Virus record (IMG/VR): IMGVR_UViG_2693429637_000008
Coordinates: 1 to 6,448 of that record
Source of the DNA: a virus
Taxonomy: Duplodnaviria > Heunggongvirae > Uroviricota > Caudoviricetes
Length of the DNA stretch: 6,448 nt
Direction: 5' to 3' (one strand)
A model generated the notes under the pieces. It saw only the letters and a list, made by a program, of their open reading frames with translations. It did not search any database and was not told the DNA's origin. The translations under genes and the position numbers were made by a program. Shown in pieces: positions 1 to 6,114 of this stretch (position 1 is its first letter; each line of letters begins with the position of its first letter).

Positions 1-50
1 TGTCAACGCCACGATGTTTGACCGTTATTTGCCATTTTCATGCCCGCTAA
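1..50. repeat. IS21-family terminal inverted repeat, istB-distal end (IRR); extent approximate
   Basis: TGTCAACGCCA...GACCGTTATTTGCCATTT pairs imperfectly with the reverse complement of 2081-2130 (TGTCAGCGCCA...GACGGTAATTCGCCATTT). Confidence 0.75.
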
Positions 51-59
51 ATACTTTCG

Positions 60-2029
<1,970 letters not shown>

Positions 2030-2080
2030 GTTGATGTCCTTTCTGGTGTGAGAACCTTAAGGAAACAACATGTTGGGTGG

Positions 2081-2130
2081 AGCGGACAATCCAAATGGCG
2101 AATTACCGTCTTATATCACTGGCGCTGACA
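2081..2130. repeat. IS21-family terminal inverted repeat, istA-proximal end (IRL); extent approximate
   Basis: Ends ...GGCGCTGACA at 2121-2130, the reverse complement of the window start with one mismatch in the first 11 nt. Confidence 0.75.
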
Positions 2131-2361
2131 CTCCCTCCGTTGTTGAGAACGGCGACGGTATGCCAGCAACTCAAGAACTCTGGTTCGTATGTTGCGCATA
2201 TCCACGCCGTTAAGCTCAATACCGTCACGGCGCATTACCTCATCCACCACACGCGCATAATTTTCAGCGGTCACGCTGTCCGGTTGCATGGCCTGTTCGT
2301 CAACCTGCTGGCTGATTCCGGCGACGCGGCGGATTAATCCCAGTATTTCGGCTTCTGTCAT
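2116..2361 (-). pseudogene. Small element gene truncated by the IS21 insertion; possibly a head-completion or head-tail connector-like protein (weak guess)
   Basis: ATG at 2361 preceded by a GGGGG Shine-Dalgarno-like run. Codons 1-77 (2131-2361) are native; the last four codons and the stop (2116-2130) lie inside the IS21 terminus. It sits directly downstream of the capsid gene. Confidence 0.5.
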
Positions 2362-2399
2362 TGTGCCCCCATCGCGCTGGTTAAGAAAACAAGCTCAGA

Positions 2400-2613
2400 T
2401 TTTTTGTAAAGAATCTGTCACGCTAAAAGATGTCGAACAAAAATTAACCACAATCATCATCTTTTTTGCATCAACTACATTAAAAACAACAGGTTACACA
2501 CATGATGATGATGACGATAAAACCACAAAAATGCGCTTTTTTCCGCGCCGACCCGCCCCGTGGACAGGCCCCCCCCACCAGGAGGACCCGCAAAAAAGGC
2601 GGCTGCTGCCGCC
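2400..2613 (-). repeat. Intergenic terminator/regulatory cassette, copy 1 (paralogue of 4918-5130)
   Basis: Shares with copy 2 the blocks TTTTTTGTAAA, TCGAACAAAAA, CGCYTTTTTCCGCG, CCGCCCCGTGGACAGGCC, CCCCCACCAGGAG and a terminal hairpin plus A-run, in the same order and spacing (plus-strand reading). Confidence 0.75.
2592..2613 (-). terminator. Rho-independent terminator downstream of the capsid gene
   Basis: Minus strand reads GGCGGC-AGCA-GCCGCC followed by TTTTTTG, 6 nt after the capsid stop codon at 2620-2622. Confidence 0.7.
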
Positions 2614-2619
2614 TTGTTC

Positions 2620-3378
2620 TCATGAAGAAATCGCTCTGACCATTCCGCGATAATCCAGAGCAGCAACGCCAGCATCAATGCGGACCTTCCAGGCCACACC
2701 GTCAACAATAAAGCCCTCCTGCTGCTCAAGGTAAGGCTCGTCATTACCGTCAAGATAAGCCACCTCAATTGTGTCCGTTCCCTGTGCTGAAAGCATGTAC
2801 CATTGCTTATCACTGACTTCATCAAGGCGGGGATCGACAATAATATCCAGTTGTTTGTGGTACGGGTTATATGAACCACTGTTTGTATCGGCACCGAAAG
2901 GCGTGGTTGAGTTAACCATTTGCAACGCTCTGTCTTCCAGAGCCGCAGGAACAAGAAGGAATTTTGGCACAATATTCAGCACCTCACCGTTTTCATCCCT
3001 CTGTGTGCGCATTGCACGGCGTGCAATGCCAAGCCCTGTAGTGCTGACTCCGTTATCAATATCATTTCCGTGTTTTTTGCTGAACAGCGGTATACCGTCA
3101 GAAAGCTTTGTGTTTCCTGTCAGCACCAGATGAACCAGATTACCCACCGTTCTGGCGGCTGCTCGCCCCATTGCCTGTGGGATAACTGTTAACTGATTCA
3201 GGTCATCGTTAATAATCGCCTGTCGGGTAATGCTGAAAATATTTCCGTAAGTTGCCAGCGCGATTGGTTCGCCACGGTCACTGGTGGTGATGTATTTATA
3301 TTCCGCGCCTTCCGGCACTTTGTTTAATGTAGAGAAGCCATTCAGGCCAACACGACGTGCCTCATGGAAGTTTGACAA
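2620..3378 (-). CDS. Major capsid protein (HK97-like), C-terminal ~250 residues; downstream frame of a split protease-capsid gene
   Basis: The 252-aa ORF has no ATG start (the ORF track begins it at a TTG) and is in the -1 frame relative to 3342-4487. Composition and length fit the body of a phage major capsid protein. It is entered from the upstream frame at the A_AAA_AAG heptamer at 3384-3390. Confidence 0.7.
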   Translation of the reverse strand: MSNFHEARRVGLNGFSTLNKVPEGAEYKYITTSDRGEPIALATYGNIFSITRQAIINDDLNQLTVIPQAMGRAAARTVGNLVHLVLTGNTKLSDGIPLFSKKHGNDIDNGVSTTGLGIARRAMRTQRDENGEVLNIVPKFLLVPAALEDRALQMVNSTTPFGADTNSGSYNPYHKQLDIIVDPRLDEVSDKQWYMLSAQGTDTIEVAYLDGNDEPYLEQQEGFIVDGVAWKVRIDAGVAALDYRGMVRAISS

Positions 3379-4487
3379 TGAACCTTTTTTCGTCCACTGG
3401 CGGAACGTTTCGCCGCTGTGTTCACGGATTTTTCAGCACCACCAGCAAGGATATAAGTAAAATCGCTGCTGCTGTGGGTGAATGCCGCGTTTACTATCTG
3501 CGAGCGTGTGCTGTAGCTGCCTGTGCTTATGCCGCGATGGGTTAATGATGCCTGTGCCATATCGAAAAGGCTCATCATGGCGTAAGGGTTGCCGCGTTCT
3601 GCCTGTTCATGTCCCAGACGCGCATTAAGCCCCTGACGCATTGCATCGCCGGTTATGTTGCCGTTATCCGTGTACGCGTAGTAAAGATTTGCGGGGGTGG
3701 TTTTGTTTGTCGGTGTCGATTCTTTACCCATAGTGAGTAAAAGGCGTTCGCGTGCATCCTCAACGCTACAGCCTGAATCAGCAAGACAACTTATAGCCAG
3801 GTCGTTATATCTTCCATTGAACGTGCCAAACAATTCACGTATCCCGTTGAGTCGTTCCTGTTCTCCGCTGCCAGTTTTCTGGCTGATCATGCTTTTAATA
3901 TTTTCCGGCATATTCGAAAAATCTCCGATTCGTTTTGATTCAATTCTGGCCATTGCTGTAATCGCGGGTATAACCTCATCTGCGAAGCCATTAGCCTTAC
4001 ACTCATTGCCATCCATCCAGGTTTCCGCCTCCATCATGGCGGTGATTTCCTGTTTGCTCCTGCCCGTTCTTCCGGCGTAGGTTTCCGCCATCGTGTCGCC
4101 CAGCTTGTCCATCAGGTCAGCAAAGCGGCGAACGTCGCCCGACACTCCGGCAGTAACACCACGGGGGGCATGTATCATCATCATCGCGTTTTCAGGCATA
4201 ACGATGTGATCGCCACACATGGCAATAAACGAGGCCATAGAAGCCGCCATGCCTTCAATGTGTACAATTTTCTTTGCCGGATGATTTTTCAGGGCGTTAT
4301 AGATAGCCAGCCCTTCAAAGATGTCGCCACCAGGTGAATGGATGCGAAGATGGATTTCAGGCACATTACCGCACGCGTTGATCTCGTCAGTAAGTGCCGA
4401 TGCTTTTACACCGTACCCGCCGATCTCGTCATAAATGCGTACATGTACAACATCAGCCATAGCCTTAATGGAAAACCATGTTTTCAT
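3342..4487 (-). CDS. ClpP/S49-like prohead protease fused to a scaffold-like linker and the N-terminal part of the major capsid protein; upstream frame of the split gene
   Basis: 381-aa ORF with AGGAG 7 nt before the ATG at 4487. The N-terminal ~190 aa have serine-protease-like motifs (IHSPGGDIFEGLAIYNAL, HIEGMAASMASFIAMCGDHIVMPENAMMMIHAP). This frame stops 13 codons after the slippery heptamer. Confidence 0.75.
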   Translation of the reverse strand: MKTWFSIKAMADVVHVRIYDEIGGYGVKASALTDEINACGNVPEIHLRIHSPGGDIFEGLAIYNALKNHPAKKIVHIEGMAASMASFIAMCGDHIVMPENAMMMIHAPRGVTAGVSGDVRRFADLMDKLGDTMAETYAGRTGRSKQEITAMMEAETWMDGNECKANGFADEVIPAITAMARIESKRIGDFSNMPENIKSMISQKTGSGEQERLNGIRELFGTFNGRYNDLAISCLADSGCSVEDARERLLLTMGKESTPTNKTTPANLYYAYTDNGNITGDAMRQGLNARLGHEQAERGNPYAMMSLFDMAQASLTHRGISTGSYSTRSQIVNAAFTHSSSDFTYILAGGAEKSVNTAAKRSASGRKKVHCQTSMRHVVLA

Positions 4488-4711
4488 AGCCAGGCTCCTA
4501 ACGTTGCCCTGTACCAGTATTCAACCGCGCTTCTCGCAATCTGCCCTTTCGTGGGTACTGGCATTCCAGGGTGATGACTTTTAATGAACTGCTGATAGCG
4601 TTCGAGCTTCTCCATAGTTCCGGCGTCTATGTGCACTGTTGCACTTTTATCCGGTTTTCTGCTGTTGTTCTCTGGCATAAGTCTGCCTCCGTTATGATTA
4701 ACGGGCATCAT
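4484..4711 (-). CDS. Small ribbon-helix-helix-like DNA-binding protein (putative regulator); true start probably the ATG at 4678
   Basis: GGAGG (plus-strand CCTCC at 4686-4690) lies 7 nt before the internal ATG at 4678, giving a 64-aa product. Predicted strand-helix-helix pattern (ATVHID / MEKLERYQQFIKS / TKGQIARSAVEYWYR). Its stop overlaps the protease start (ATGA at 4484-4487). Confidence 0.6.
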   Translation of the reverse strand: MMPVNHNGGRLMPENNSRKPDKSATVHIDAGTMEKLERYQQFIKSHHPGMPVPTKGQIARSAVEYWYRATLGAWL

Positions 4712-4859
4712 TATTGATCGATAAAACTGGTAAATAAATCATTTTCTATCTAAAAATCAGATTATGTGTTTTCTGATTTTTGTCATACCAGCAAAAGAAT
4801 TGACTAATTATTGCCACGCCAGCACAATTAAGACTCATCATTTCGGTAGTGGCAGTATC

Positions 4860-4876
4860 CTTTGTCGCTGACAAAG
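4860..4876. promoter_or_regulatory. Perfect 7-bp inverted repeat with 3-bp spacer, CTTTGTC-gct-GACAAAG; candidate operator or hairpin
   Basis: Exact dyad symmetry seen in the sequence, located in the leader upstream of the RHH-capsid operon. Confidence 0.4.
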
Positions 4877-4910
4877 CGCCTCCGGTGGCACCATCGGGGC
4901 GCTTTTTTTT
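4876..4910 (+). terminator. GC stem-loop followed by T8 on the plus strand; terminator-like, possibly bidirectional attenuator
   Basis: GCGCC (4876-4880) pairs with GGCGC (4898-4902), followed by TTTTTTTT (4903-4910). On the minus strand the same stem is followed only by a weak TTTGTC. No plus-strand protein gene ends here. Confidence 0.45.
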
Positions 4911-4917
4911 GCGCCTG

Positions 4918-5130
4918 TTTTTTGTAAATGCTTTCGGGAACGTTCCGGCGTCGAACAAAAAACAACCTAATTCGACACTAAAAATTTTTATTTTGCCATA
5001 TATCAATAACTTAAACTGGTGGTGATGGTGACATAAAAATCAAAAAATACGCCTTTTTCCGCGAACCGCCCGCCCCGTGGACAGGCCACCCCCACCAGGA
5101 GTACCTACAAAAAAGCCGGATTGCTCCGGC
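4918..5130 (-). repeat. Intergenic terminator/regulatory cassette, copy 2 (paralogue of 2400-2613)
   Basis: Same ordered conserved blocks as copy 1. Also contains a match to the IHF-site consensus as I recall it (TATCAATAACTTA, 5001-5013). Confidence 0.75.
5108..5130 (-). terminator. Rho-independent terminator downstream of the SSB-like gene
   Basis: Minus strand reads GCCGGA-GCAA-TCCGGC followed by TTTTTTG, 17 nt after the stop at 5147-5149. The stem differs from the copy-1 terminator by compensatory changes. Confidence 0.7.
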
Positions 5131-5146
5131 TTCTGTCACTCGTTGC

Positions 5147-5569
5147 TTAAAACGGTATGTTATCCCCGTACGGATCATCATTCCCCGCCTGTTGTTTGGC
5201 CCTGTTCAGTGCATCAGTGGCCTGCCCCTGTTGGCCTTTTTTACCGCCCGGTCGCGCCGTTCTGGCACTGATTACACTGTCTGCGATAACCTGCCAGCCC
5301 TGCCGCGTTTCTCCGTTCTGGCCTGTCCACTGGCTTACCTGCATGTTACCCGCCACGCTCACCAGCTCGCCTTTCTGGTGCTTTGCCAGTGCGTCAGCCT
5401 GTCTGCCAAACGCCAGGACGGATAACCATATCGTCGCCGTTCCGTCATCTGCCTGGCTGCACGGCAGGGGAACCGCCATACTCGCCATCGTCATTTGCGT
5501 ACCCTTGCTGGTGGTCTTTAACTGCGGGTCAGCCACCAGCCGCCCGTAAGCCGCTATCTGTGCTGTCAT
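5147..5569 (-). CDS. Short single-stranded-DNA-binding (SSB)-like OB-fold protein with a C-terminal ...DNIPF tail
   Basis: 140-aa ORF with GGAGAG 8 nt upstream. The N-terminal ~100 aa follow the bacterial SSB OB-fold pattern (GRLVADPQLKTT..., WLSVLAFGRQADALAKH, QKGELVSVAG). A Gly/Gln-rich linker leads to a C-terminal ...GNDDPYGDNIPF, resembling the SSB acidic IPF tip. Its ATG overlaps the upstream stop (ATGA at 5566-5569). Confidence 0.7.
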   Translation of the reverse strand: MTAQIAAYGRLVADPQLKTTSKGTQMTMASMAVPLPCSQADDGTATIWLSVLAFGRQADALAKHQKGELVSVAGNMQVSQWTGQNGETRQGWQVIADSVISARTARPGGKKGQQGQATDALNRAKQQAGNDDPYGDNIPF

Positions 5570-5811
5570 GCTGTCTGCTCTCCGGTTTTAACGTTGATGG
5601 TTGTCACCTGTTCCGCTTCGGCAATCTCCCGTTCTGTCAGCGTGGCAAAGTTTGCCGCCGTCGTGGTCATGAATGCGCTTATCAGTTCGGGATGTGCTTT
5701 CGCGTATCCTTCCCCGGCGTTGCGGTCGATGATTTTTATCGCCACCCTCAGCCAGTGTTCTGTCAAATCAAGGGCGTGAGATTGTGGTTTTTTGGCGTGC
5801 TTCGTTGTCAC
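5566..5811 (-). CDS. Hypothetical 81-aa protein, first gene of the SSB operon
   Basis: GTG start at 5811 with GAGG 8 nt upstream; translationally coupled to the SSB-like gene. No recognisable motif. Confidence 0.5.
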   Translation of the reverse strand: MTTKHAKKPQSHALDLTEHWLRVAIKIIDRNAGEGYAKAHPELISAFMTTTAANFATLTEREIAEAEQVTTINVKTGEQTA

Positions 5812-5855: not shown

Positions 5856-6086
5856 CCTTCACCTGTTCACCTTTTGCAATTTTCCCTTTTTATTCATGAT
5901 GTTAATGGGTTAACAGTTTCACAAAAACTATTCACCAACTGTTCACCACTGTTCACCCTTAAAGCTCAATAAAGAATCAAAAAGGTGAACAGTGAATAGT
6001 TTGGTGAACAGTTCATAAATAACTGTTCACCCTATAATATACTGATATAAAAGACATTTATTGCAGGGTGAACAGTGGTGAACAGT
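5856..6086. repeat. Iteron array: putative replication origin of P4 alpha-protein type
   Basis: Direct copies of (AC)TGTTCACC at 5864, 5940, 5950 and 6024, with variants CCTTCACC at 5856 and TATTCACC at 5929. Inverted copies GGTGAACA(GT) at 5984, 6003, 6067 and 6077. Interspersed AT-rich tracts and a perfect TATAAT at 6033-6038. Confidence 0.75.
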
Positions 6087-6114
6087 TATTCCATAAGTTT
6101 AATTTTTTCCATCG

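What the first reader, a model, noticed from the sequence alone, without database searches (positions are those of the whole stretch)
2131..4711. Stand-alone capsid module: RHH protein plus protease-scaffold-capsid fusion, with no adjacent portal or terminase
In tailed phages, and in capsid-forming satellites as I recall them, the prohead protease and capsid genes follow the terminase and portal genes. Here the protease-capsid fusion is preceded only by a translationally coupled 64-75-aa ribbon-helix-helix-like protein and a long regulatory intergenic region. It is followed by one small gene and is bracketed by terminators. Together with a P4-type iteron origin and an SSB-like gene, this suggests a satellite-like element that makes its own HK97-fold shell, or interferes with a helper phage's capsid assembly, while taking portal, terminase and tail from elsewhere. 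The portal and terminase genes may simply lie beyond the IS21 element, outside the window.
Basis: inference. Interest (0 to 1): 0.75.

Follow-up and report, generated by a model that had tools for sequence, protein, structure and literature searches.

The report
Broken capsid gene of a phage satellite
This is the packaging end of a known kind of phage satellite (a Gram-negative PICI) in Shigella sonnei: its capsid gene really does stand alone, without portal or terminase, but that is normal for the family, and this copy is a dead remnant broken by a 13-bp deletion and by insertion sequences.

Summary
The window matches Shigella sonnei Ss046. It covers part of an ~11-kb integrative element lying between cspD and clpS. 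The element's gene order is int, alpA, primase with iteron origin, SSB, cos1, a 64-aa gene, a ClpP-protease/scaffold/capsid gene, cos2, a 93-aa gene, then attR.

No portal or terminase lies beyond the IS21 copy; clpS does. So the lone capsid module is real. It is also expected: a capsid gene is one of the five core components used to define Gram-negative PICIs, and the fused gene has its own NCBIfam model (NF045540).

- The "fusion" is two out-of-frame ORFs here. A 13-bp deletion inside the capsid domain breaks it, while E. coli carries the same allele intact.
- The "terminator-bracketed regulatory regions" are two lambda-type cos sites. cos2 is 86% identical over 204 bp to the cos of a lambdoid prophage that carries the same type of fused head gene.
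- Sister elements at the same att site also carry a TerS gene after cos2.

The element is further broken by IS21, an IS in the primase gene and an IS1. In intact relatives the fusion gene is under purifying selection (dN/dS 0.13), but its role is untested.

Verdict: ordinary, already known, decayed.

The parts
1..2130 (-). Complete IS21-family insertion sequence (istA 857-2029, istB 60-860). It is inserted into the last gene of the satellite, with a 4-bp target duplication (CTCC on the + strand at 2131-2134).
   Evidence: Pfam rve/Mu-transpos_C_2 and IstB_IS21. Ends TGTCA.../...TGACA and the GGAG duplication were read in L006. Copies without the IS are L005, L007 and L010.
2131..2361 (-). Last satellite gene (PHROG 1561, unknown function; 93 aa when intact). 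Here IS21 cuts it after codon 77, leaving ORF 2116-2361 of 81 aa with 4 IS-derived residues.
   Evidence: phrog_1561 at 1.2e-43. The intact 93-aa form is present in L001, L005 and L011. The single-sequence AF2 model is all-helical, pLDDT 70. No PDB or Pfam match.
2394..2615 (-). cos2. A terminator-like hairpin (2598-2613) plus T-run is followed by cosQ/cosN-like sequence (cosN-like GGGCGGGTCGG at 2548-2558) and a helper-type cosB-side sequence.
   Evidence: Direct repeat D1. Window 2596-2394 is 85.8% identical over 204 bp to the cos region just upstream of the TerS gene of a lambdoid prophage (L002 23718-23516). It aligns with lambda ACG|GGGCGGCGACCT|CGCGG.
2620..3378 (-). ORF2: the C-terminal ~250 residues of the HK97-fold major capsid domain. 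It is out of frame with ORF1 and has no start codon of its own apart from an internal TTG.
   Evidence: PF25209 Phage_capsid_4 at 1.5e-49, starting at profile position 43 of 262. It is 100% identical to the C-part of the E. coli proteins P0038, P0041, P0042 and P0078, which read straight through the junction.
3423..3424 (-). Site of the 13-bp deletion (GCTTGCAGGCTGG in relatives) that shifts the frame inside the capsid domain.
   Evidence: MAFFT alignment with L001 and L002. Intact alleles read EKSVLAGWE(Q/H)SGETFRQWTKKGSLSNF across the junction. In intact proteins the capsid domain spans residues 330-623.
3384..3390 (-). A_AAA_AAG heptamer. Only after the deletion does it sit in slippery register, so that a -1 slip would rejoin the capsid frame. 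Judged coincidental.
   Evidence: Frame analysis. The A-run is ancestral and is read ACG AAA AAA GGT in intact alleles. There is no downstream stimulatory structure, z = -0.54.
3342..4487 (-). ORF1 (381 aa): ClpP-like head-maturation protease (Ser83 and His106 motifs intact), linker/scaffold region and the first ~25 residues of the capsid domain (which starts at residue 330 in intact proteins). After the deletion, near residue 354, it continues as a 27-residue out-of-frame tail.
   Evidence: PF00574 at 3.7e-33. NF045542 Clp_rel_HeadMat at 8.3e-60 and NF045540 at 822 bits on the reconstructed protein. Catalytic motifs. The exact protein is recorded in ~2900 collection blocks; the six places read are CP000038.1 and other NCBI assemblies.
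4484..4678 (-). Conserved 64-aa gene (PHROG 4934), translationally coupled to the fusion gene by an ATGA overlap. Its shape is compatible with a ribbon-helix-helix fold, but this is unproven.
   Evidence: phrog_4934 at 4.3e-40. Conserved in L001 and L002 with dN/dS 0.125. A 34%-identical homologue sits in the same position in L011. AF2: coil 1-18, helices 19-35 and 44-63, pLDDT 67. No Pfam, PDB or hhalign support.
5020..5132 (-). cos1. A terminator-like hairpin (5115-5130) plus T-run is followed by cosQ/cosN-like sequence (cosN-like GGGCGGGCGGTT at 5064-5075). Downstream of cosN it diverges from the helper's cos.
   Evidence: Direct repeat D1. 83% identical over 95 bp to the helper cos and 83% over 102 bp to cos2. 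Alignment with lambda cos.
5147..5569 (-). Satellite SSB gene (replication zone).
   Evidence: PF00436 at 3.9e-16. TIGR00621.
5924..6100 (.). Iteron cluster (GGTGAACAGT repeats, direct and inverted), the likely satellite origin. It lies downstream of the primase gene, as in PICIs.
   Evidence: Repeat families D2 and D6 and inverted repeats I1, I6-I8, I14 and I19. Origin position as described for PICIs in PMC6092414.
6115..6411 (-). C-terminal fragment of the primase/helicase gene. The gene is split by an IS3-family element just beyond the window's right end.
   Evidence: PF03288 Pox_D5 at 3e-11. L006 shows D5_N/DUF5906 (495 aa), then the IS (HTH_Tnp_1 + rve), then this fragment.

Best explanation
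The region is the 'late zone' of a classical Gram-negative PICI-type satellite of lambdoid (Gifsy-2/O157-type) phages. In Shigella sonnei it is integrated between cspD and clpS.

Layout, in the direction of transcription: SSB, cos1, a 64-aa gene translationally coupled to a tripartite gene (ClpP-like protease, scaffold, HK97-fold capsid), cos2, a 93-aa gene, attR.

How the family works:
- Shown here by homology and context: the satellite carries its own integrase, AlpA, primase and origin. It also carries two copies of the helper's cos site, so the helper's terminase can cut and package it. Portal, large terminase and tail must come from the helper.
- Shown here: in intact relatives the tripartite gene is kept under purifying selection with its protease active-site motifs.
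- Inferred: the satellite therefore supplies its own shell subunit, with its scaffold and maturation protease, to assemble on or compete for the helper's portal. This would either build or resize capsids, or interfere with the helper.

This copy is dead. A 13-bp deletion frameshifts the gene inside the capsid domain. IS21 truncates the last gene, an IS splits the primase gene and an IS1 sits next to int. The TerS gene that sister elements carry after cos2 is absent.
For: Source and borders:
- The window maps to S. sonnei CP000038.1 (L006 8040-14487). The element has int, AlpA, DUF4222 and D5-type primase upstream and clpS/clpA downstream.
- An 18-bp att core is repeated at both ends.

Intact relatives:
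- In E. coli RM10410 the ~10.7-kb element lies between mppA and pgrR and has no portal or terminase.
- In O157:H7 the same element lies inside the split terminase gpA gene of a lambdoid prophage. That prophage has its own portal followed by a ClpP/capsid fusion gene.
- These arrangements match the PICI/HE-PICI four-zone layout (PMC10111431) and the five PICI core components, which include capsid morphogenesis (PMC10085698).

Fusion family: NF045540 at 822 bits against a cut-off of 475, and PHROG 133.

cos sites. Two cos sites are also known in EcCICFT073 (PMC6092414, PMC6739421).

Pseudogene: the 13-bp deletion, and intact alleles with an identical capsid part.

Selection and divergence:
- dN/dS is 0.13 overall and 0.12 downstream of the frameshift. 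Ser83 and His106 are kept.
- Satellite and helper fusion proteins are only 51% identical, so this is not a recent capture.

Sister elements with TerS after cos2.
Against: - No experiment bears on this family's tripartite gene. In EcCICFT073, whose capsid gene is lambda-E-type rather than this fusion, deleting the capsid or decoration gene did not relieve interference with lambda, and the DNA was packaged in phage-sized heads (PMC6092414). [quoted passage not shown] The 'own shell or resizing' step is therefore inference only.
- The cos assignment rests on sequence similarity and position, not on mapped ends.
- The frameshifted allele, with the same IS break in the primase, also appears joined to a prophage-embedded right arm (L008). 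So either the dead copy has recombined, or that contig is chimeric.
- A low level of -1 slippage at A_AAA_AAG cannot be excluded.
Confidence: 0.85

Rival explanations
1. It is an ordinary defective prophage: the leftover head module of a lambdoid phage whose portal and terminase genes were deleted or lie beyond the IS21 copy.
For: The fusion gene is of the same family as the head gene of lambdoid prophages. The locus is IS-ridden.
Against: - Beyond IS21 lie the gene's 3' end, attR and clpS.
- The same compact ~11-kb architecture, with int, alpA, primase and SSB, recurs intact at several att sites and inside prophages.
- The satellite fusion protein is only ~51% identical to the helper's and forms its own lineage.
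Confidence: 0.03
2. It is a capsid-forming PICI (cf-PICI) that makes complete satellite capsids and steals only tails.
For: It encodes protease, scaffold and capsid functions, and shares int/alpA/primase modules with E. coli PICIs. cf-PICIs share these modules too (bioRxiv 10.1101/2022.09.08.507074).
Against: cf-PICIs are defined by portal, head-tail connectors, HNH and TerL in addition (PMC10085698; 10.1101/2022.09.08.507074). None of these is present between the att sites of this element or its intact relatives.
Confidence: 0.02
3. It is a P4-like satellite, as the 'P4-type origin' remark suggests, that remodels P2-type capsids.
For: A D5/P4-alpha-like primase, AlpA, an Icd-like gene and an iteron origin are present.
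Against: - No sid, psu or delta genes are annotated or detected in the element or its relatives.
- cos is lambda-type and matches a lambdoid prophage cos.
- Relatives are embedded in lambdoid prophage late genes.
- PMC10085698 notes that int + AlpA + primase alone does not distinguish P4-like elements from PICIs.
Confidence: 0.02
4. The two-ORF arrangement is functional. Programmed -1 frameshifting at A_AAA_AAG would give a protease-scaffold product (381 aa) and a minor full-length protease-scaffold-capsid product.
For: The heptamer A_AAA_AAG lies in X_XXY_YYZ register in ORF1, 6 codons before... rather, upstream of its stop, and a -1 shift rejoins the capsid frame. The allele is found in thousands of assemblies.
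Against: - The register arises only from a 13-bp deletion absent from all other lineages. Intact alleles with an identical capsid part exist.
- The A-run is ancestral in the other frame.
- There is no stimulatory structure, z = -0.54.
- The rescued product would replace the conserved LAGWE.SGETFRQWT segment with unrelated residues.
- The allele's abundance may simply reflect many near-identical assemblies: the places read share the same IS-broken element at up to 99.9% identity.
Confidence: 0.04

Closest known systems
Gram-negative PICIs of E. coli (EcCICFT073 type; Fillol-Salom 2018 PMC6092414 and 2019 PMC6739421; SatelliteFinder PICI model, PMC10085698)
   Same: - int, alpA, primase with a downstream origin, and unidirectional genes.
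- Size of ~10-15 kb.
- Two lambda-type cos sites.
- A lone capsid-family gene without portal or TerL.
- Lambdoid helpers.
- Sister elements (L011 type) have all five PICI core components, including TerS.
   Different: - The capsid component here is a Gifsy-2-type tripartite protease/scaffold/capsid gene. EcCICFT073 instead has a lambda-E-type capsid gene plus a decoration gene.
- No RppA/B/C-sized gene is seen. A 64-aa coupled gene occupies the position after cos1.
- The window's lineage lacks TerS.
- This copy is a pseudogenised, IS-disrupted remnant.
Helper-embedded PICIs (HE-PICIs; Tommasini, Mageeney and Williams 2023, PMC10111431)
   Same: - Close relatives (~90% nucleotide identity) sit inside the terminase gpA gene of a lambdoid prophage (L002; also L008).
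- The same four zones occur: integration, Bro, replication and late.
- The late zone holds helper-type head genes.
   Different: The window's copy is chromosomal, between cspD and clpS. Other elements use the same site (L011, L012), so it is not helper-embedded.
Tripartite capsid gene of Salmonella phage Gifsy-2 and related lambdoid prophages (NCBIfam NF045540; the Effantin et al. 2010 work is known to me from memory, and only its title was seen cited)
   Same: A single gene encodes ClpP-like protease, scaffold and HK97-fold capsid protein. The reconstructed protein scores well above the family cut-off and aligns over its full length (51% identity) with the prophage version.
   Different: - In phages the gene follows terminase and portal and is followed by decoration, connector and tail genes. 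Here it stands alone between two cos sites in a satellite.
- The linker is ~35 residues shorter than in the helper protein.
- In this window the gene is frameshifted.
SaPIbov5 Ccm and the PmCI172 capsid homologue (satellite-encoded capsid-protein homologues linked to small capsids; cited in PMC6092414 and 10.1101/2022.09.08.507074)
   Same: A cos-packaged satellite that encodes a homologue of its helper's major capsid protein.
   Different: - Ccm is a capsid homologue without a fused protease or scaffold.
- Size redirection is demonstrated for Ccm, and only observed in association for PmCI172.
- Nothing has been tested for this family.

Membership tests
Gram-negative PICI (five core components, PMC10085698; features in PMC6092414) | Tyrosine integrase at one end, bounded by att repeats | tested here: met
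   PF00589 integrase in L005 and L006. The 18-bp core AATGGTGTAGTTAATTTT is repeated at L005 967 and 12860. The integrase lies outside the window.
Gram-negative PICI (five core components, PMC10085698; features in PMC6092414) | AlpA-type regulator | tested here: met
   PF05930 Phage_AlpA gene next to int in L005, L006 and L011. It lies outside the window.
Gram-negative PICI (five core components, PMC10085698; features in PMC6092414) | Primase-replicase with an origin downstream | tested here: met
   D5_N/DUF5906/Pox_D5 primase, split by an IS in this copy. Iterons at window 5924-6100 lie just downstream of it.
Gram-negative PICI (five core components, PMC10085698; features in PMC6092414) | Capsid-morphogenesis (capsid-family) gene | tested here: met
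   PF25209 and NF045540. Present, but frameshifted in this copy.
Gram-negative PICI (five core components, PMC10085698; features in PMC6092414) | Small terminase (TerS) homologue | tested here: not met
   There is no TerS in the window, L001, L002 or L005. A DUF1441 TerS is present after cos2 in the sister elements L011-L013. The window's lineage would therefore be a 'Type B' PICI, with four of the five components.
Gram-negative PICI (five core components, PMC10085698; features in PMC6092414) | No tail, holin, portal or head-tail connector genes | tested here: met
   Gene lists between the att sites.
Gram-negative PICI (five core components, PMC10085698; features in PMC6092414) | Helper-phage-dependent induction, replication, packaging and transfer | not testable with these tools
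   This needs induction and transfer experiments. The only indirect support is cos similarity to a lambdoid prophage.
ClpP-like prohead protease/major capsid protein fusion (NCBIfam NF045540) | Whole-protein score above the curated cut-off (475 bits) in one reading frame | tested here: inconclusive
   The protein reconstructed by a -1 shift scores 822.6 bits in two stretches. The genomic gene is split into two frames, so it is a pseudogene of the family.
Capsid-forming PICI (cf-PICI) | Portal, head-tail adaptor/connector, HNH and TerL genes in the element | tested here: not met
   None is present in the element or its intact relatives. Definition taken from PMC10085698 and 10.1101/2022.09.08.507074.
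P4-like satellite | psu-delta-sid capsid-hijacking operon and epsilon | tested here: not met
   No such genes are annotated or hit by Pfam in the full elements. Definition taken from PMC10085698.
Helper-embedded PICI (HE-PICI) | Integration inside a late gene of a lambdoid prophage | tested here: not met
   The window's copy lies between cspD and clpS. The relatives L002 and L008 are inside the terminase gpA gene.
Ribbon-helix-helix DNA-binding proteins (claim for the 64-aa protein) | N-terminal beta-strand followed by two helices, with a match to an RHH profile or structure | tested here: inconclusive
   AF2 gives coil, helix 19-35 and helix 44-63, pLDDT 67. No Pfam hit even at E=10. No PDB sequence hit. 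No Foldseek hit. hhalign against CopG gives probability 0.1.
Programmed -1 ribosomal frameshift site | Slippery heptamer in register, with the two-frame arrangement conserved among relatives and a stimulatory element | tested here: not met
   The heptamer is in register. However, relatives have a single ORF and no structure stands out, z = -0.54.

The most novel reading that the evidence does not exclude
In intact members of this lineage, the satellite's own tripartite protease/scaffold/capsid gene builds the shell on the helper's portal, possibly a smaller shell sized for the ~11-kb genome. This would make these elements a functional intermediate between classical PICIs, which only remodel helper capsids, and cf-PICIs, which encode the whole head. 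The coupled 64-aa protein would act at the satellite-specific side of cos1 to steer the helper's terminase. A remoter variant concerns the S. sonnei allele itself: its truncated product, with an active protease and scaffold but no shell domain, might be kept as an anti-phage interference factor, or be rescued by -1 slippage.
Probability: 0.25. Interest if true: 0.6.

Novelty: already known. Interest (0 to 1): 0.22.

Why it matters
For this window, little. It is a decayed copy of a catalogued satellite type in a genome known for IS expansion and gene decay. Its value is mainly in correct annotation: a pseudogene, two cos sites and the IS boundaries.

For the family, one open question remains. 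Most enterobacterial PICIs keep a lone capsid gene under purifying selection, yet the only knock-out tested, in EcCICFT073, had no effect on interference or transfer. The tripartite-gene lineage supplies protease, scaffold and shell in a single gene flanked by two cos sites. That makes it a clean system for asking whether such satellites build or resize their own heads.

Tried and rejected
- Programmed frameshift. The A_AAA_AAG register looked striking. It was rejected after alignment showed a 13-bp deletion, intact alleles with an identical capsid part were found, and no downstream structure appeared.
- RHH assignment for the 64-aa protein. I tried Pfam, NCBIfam and PHROG scans, a PDB sequence search, a word-index homologue search (6 hits), a full HMMER scan of 1.84 billion representatives (8 hits), a single-sequence AF2 model, Foldseek against the PDB (no hit) and hhalign against CopG. 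The family is narrow and the fold remains unproven.
- Rpp homologue. PDB sequence searches with the 64-aa, 93-aa and 81-aa proteins gave nothing.
- The AF2 model of the 81-aa truncated last gene is all-helical and uninformative.
- Megablast of the module against the phage collection found no match.
- An Rfam scan of the window gave only a chance miRNA hit on the iterons.
- I tried to fetch EcCICFT073 by guessing coordinates in CFT073. That returned the icd prophage instead, so no direct sequence comparison with EcCICFT073 was made.
- The promoter/terminator scan listed only + strand sites. The minus-strand hairpins after SSB and after the capsid gene were read directly from the sequence.


Full report
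**What is in the window.** All genes of interest lie on the minus strand. In order of transcription they are:
- a primase C-terminal fragment (6411-6115, Pox_D5);
- an iteron cluster (6100-5924);
- an 81-aa ORF (5811-5566);
- an SSB gene (5569-5147);
- a 435-bp intergenic region;
- a small ORF (4678-4484 as 64 aa, or from 4711 as 75 aa) whose stop overlaps by ATGA the start of a ClpP-protease ORF;
- ORF1, the ClpP-protease ORF (4487-3342, 381 aa, PF00574 at 3.7e-33);
- ORF2 in another frame (3378-2620, 252 aa), which matches Phage_capsid_4 only from profile position 43 onward (1.5e-49);
- a 258-bp spacer;
- a small ORF (2361-2116);
- a complete IS21 element (istA and istB, 1-2130).

The 'fusion', however, is two out-of-frame ORFs.

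**The frameshift.** Intact homologues in E. coli are single 629-aa ORFs annotated 'ClpP-like prohead protease/major capsid protein fusion protein'.
- Alignment shows that the window lacks 13 bp (GCTTGCAGGCTGG) at 3424/3423, inside the capsid domain. That domain spans residues 330-623 in intact proteins.
- A protein reconstructed by a -1 shift scores 822.6 bits against NCBIfam NF045540, cut-off 475.
- The E. coli proteins P0038, P0041, P0042 and P0078 have a capsid part 100% identical to ORF2. They read straight through the junction as EKSVLAGWE(Q/H)SGETFRQWTKKGSLSNF. The deletion is therefore a recent, lineage-specific pseudogenising event.
- After the deletion, an ancestral A-run falls in A_AAA_AAG slippery register, and a -1 slip would rejoin the frames. 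I judge this coincidental for three reasons. Relatives read the run in the other frame. No downstream structure stands out, z = -0.54. The rescued protein would lose a segment that is also conserved in the helper's homologue.

**Source and borders.**
- The exact ORF1 protein is on record in about 2900 blocks of the assembly collection. The window maps to CP000038.1, which I know to be Shigella sonnei Ss046, at L006 8040-14487.
- In that genome the order is macB, cspD, [int, IS1, alpA, small genes, DUF4222, primase split by an IS3-family element, 81 aa, SSB, 64 aa, ORF1/ORF2, last gene cut by IS21], clpS, clpA.
- Copies without IS21 (L005, L007, L010) have the intact 93-aa last gene.
- An 18-bp att core is repeated at both ends.
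- IS21 has a 4-bp target duplication, and the finding's start (2131) is the first base after it.
- Beyond IS21 there is therefore chromosome, not portal or terminase.

**Intact relatives.**
- In E. coli RM10410 the whole ~10.7-kb element lies between mppA and pgrR. It carries int, an HTH gene, BRO-N, YlcI/YnfO genes, Icd-like, DUF4222, primase, an 81-aa gene, SSB, the small gene, the fusion gene and the 93-aa gene.
- In O157:H7 H6437 the same element sits inside the split terminase gpA gene of a lambdoid prophage. That prophage has its own gpW, portal, ClpP/capsid fusion, DUF2190 and tail genes.
- This is the helper-embedded PICI configuration of Tommasini et al. (PMC10111431). They describe four zones (integration, Bro, replication, late) and note that a capsid gene is the most common late gene in Gram-negative PICIs, present in 21 of 29 reference elements.
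- SatelliteFinder lists 'capsid morphogenesis' among the five core PICI components (PMC10085698).
- A sister lineage (fusion protein 61% identical) uses the same cspD/clpS site. It adds a DUF1441 small-terminase gene between cos2 and the 93-aa gene. That TerS is 48% identical to the prophage's TerS.
- The window's lineage therefore has four of the five core components.

**The 'terminator-bracketed regulatory regions' are cos sites.**
- The longest direct repeat in the region (2487-2615 versus 5004-5132) follows the SSB and capsid stop codons.
- Each copy has a GC hairpin plus T-run, followed by CCTG..CACG|GGGCGGG....|CGCGGAAAAA. This aligns with lambda's ACG|GGGCGGCGACCT|CGCGG, and with the sequence just upstream of the TerS gene of the O157 prophage.
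- cos2 (2596-2394) is 85.8% identical over 204 bp to that prophage cos, including the TerS-proximal side. cos1 (5113-5020) shares only the first ~95 bp and then diverges.
- Two cos sites, one with a non-phage cosB, are exactly what was found and tested in EcCICFT073 (PMC6092414, PMC6739421).
- No Rpp-sized gene is present here. The conserved 64-aa gene lies after cos1, in the position that Nu1 holds after lambda's cos. That suggests a packaging-specificity role, but this is inference only.

**The small proteins.**
- The 64-aa protein belongs to PHROG 4934, of unknown function. It is under purifying selection, dN/dS 0.125, and has a 34%-identical counterpart in the sister lineage.
- Its family is very narrow: 6 hits by word search and 8 by exhaustive HMMER.
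- AF2 gives coil, helix, helix at pLDDT 67. That is compatible with a ribbon-helix-helix monomer, but no profile, PDB or Foldseek evidence supports it.
- The last gene (PHROG 1561) is predicted to be all-helical and has no known relatives.

**Is the fusion gene functional in intact elements?**
- Between the window's allele and RM10410, dN/dS is 0.13 overall and 0.12 downstream of the frameshift.
- The gene is mosaic: dS is 0.04 in the protease part and 0.84 in the capsid part.
- The ClpP Ser and His motifs are kept.
- Satellite and helper proteins are 51% identical in the protease, 39% in the scaffold and 58% in the capsid domain. Satellite sub-lineages are 57-66% identical to each other.
- The gene has therefore been maintained in satellites for a long time, rather than recently captured.
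- What it does is untested. In EcCICFT073, which has a different capsid family, deleting the capsid or decoration gene did not relieve interference with lambda, and the DNA was packaged in phage-sized heads (PMC6092414). [quoted passage not shown] In SaPIbov5 (Ccm) and PmCI172, satellite capsid homologues are linked to small capsids.
- I consider an 'own shell or resizing on the helper's portal' role the most likely for intact elements, at roughly one chance in three to four. Interference or a spare-part role are the alternatives.

**Verdict.** The satellite interpretation is right in outline. The arrangement is the known norm for Gram-negative PICIs, the element is not P4-like, and this S. 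sonnei copy is a decayed remnant. It has a frameshifted capsid gene, a split primase, IS1 and IS21 insertions, and no TerS.

Rival readings are rejected on tested features: prophage remnant, cf-PICI, P4-like satellite and programmed frameshift. Novelty is 'already known' and interest is low.

Noticed in passing
window 4800-4916, + strand: A possible small transcription unit runs opposite to the late genes, between cos1 and the 64-aa gene. It has a promoter-like TTGACT-17-CACAAT (4800-4828), two hairpins, and a strong GC hairpin plus U8 terminator (about 4876-4911). The fold z-score is -2.73. The promoter-like hexamers and the hairpin stem are kept in E. coli relatives, with changes in the loop. 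There is no Rfam match.
   Followed up: partly
window 3384-3390, minus strand: After the 13-bp deletion, the ancestral A-run reads CGA_AAA_AAG in slippery register, and a -1 slip would rejoin the capsid frame. It looks like a programmed frameshift site but is most likely coincidental.
   Followed up: yes
L008 (GCA_900160285.1, FUCV01000007.1) 1-5000, compared with L005: The same frameshifted allele, with the same IS break in the primase, is 99.9% identical to the cspD/clpS copy up to L005:12622. It then continues into a right arm joined to a prophage terminase gpA gene, the helper-embedded configuration. This is either recombination between two resident satellites or an assembly chimera.
   Followed up: partly
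L011/L012 10171-10940; L013 10161-10930: Sister satellites, two of them at the same cspD/clpS att site, carry a DUF1441 small-terminase gene directly after cos2. It overlaps the start of the 93-aa gene, the position the large-terminase gene holds in phages. The window's lineage lacks this TerS gene.
   Followed up: partly
window 2620-4487 compared with L001 12489-14378: The fusion gene is mosaic. The protease part is almost identical between lineages (dS 0.04), whereas the capsid part is highly diverged (dS 0.84). This indicates recombination within the gene.
   Followed up: partly
L002 10454-11584 and 22002-23006: In E. coli O157:H7 H6437 the satellite splits the large-terminase gene of a lambdoid prophage, so the prophage cannot make terminase until the satellite excises. 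This configuration is already known as HE-PICI.
   Followed up: partly
window 5924-6100: A dense set of direct and inverted GGTGAACAGT iterons lies between the primase stop codon and the 81-aa gene. It is presumably the satellite origin. A chance Rfam miRNA hit falls on it.
   Followed up: partly
window 5566-5811: The 81-aa ORF (PHROG 1231, unknown function) differs from the RM10410 copy by 6 non-synonymous changes and 1 synonymous change (dN/dS about 1.9). There are too few changes to interpret.
   Followed up: no
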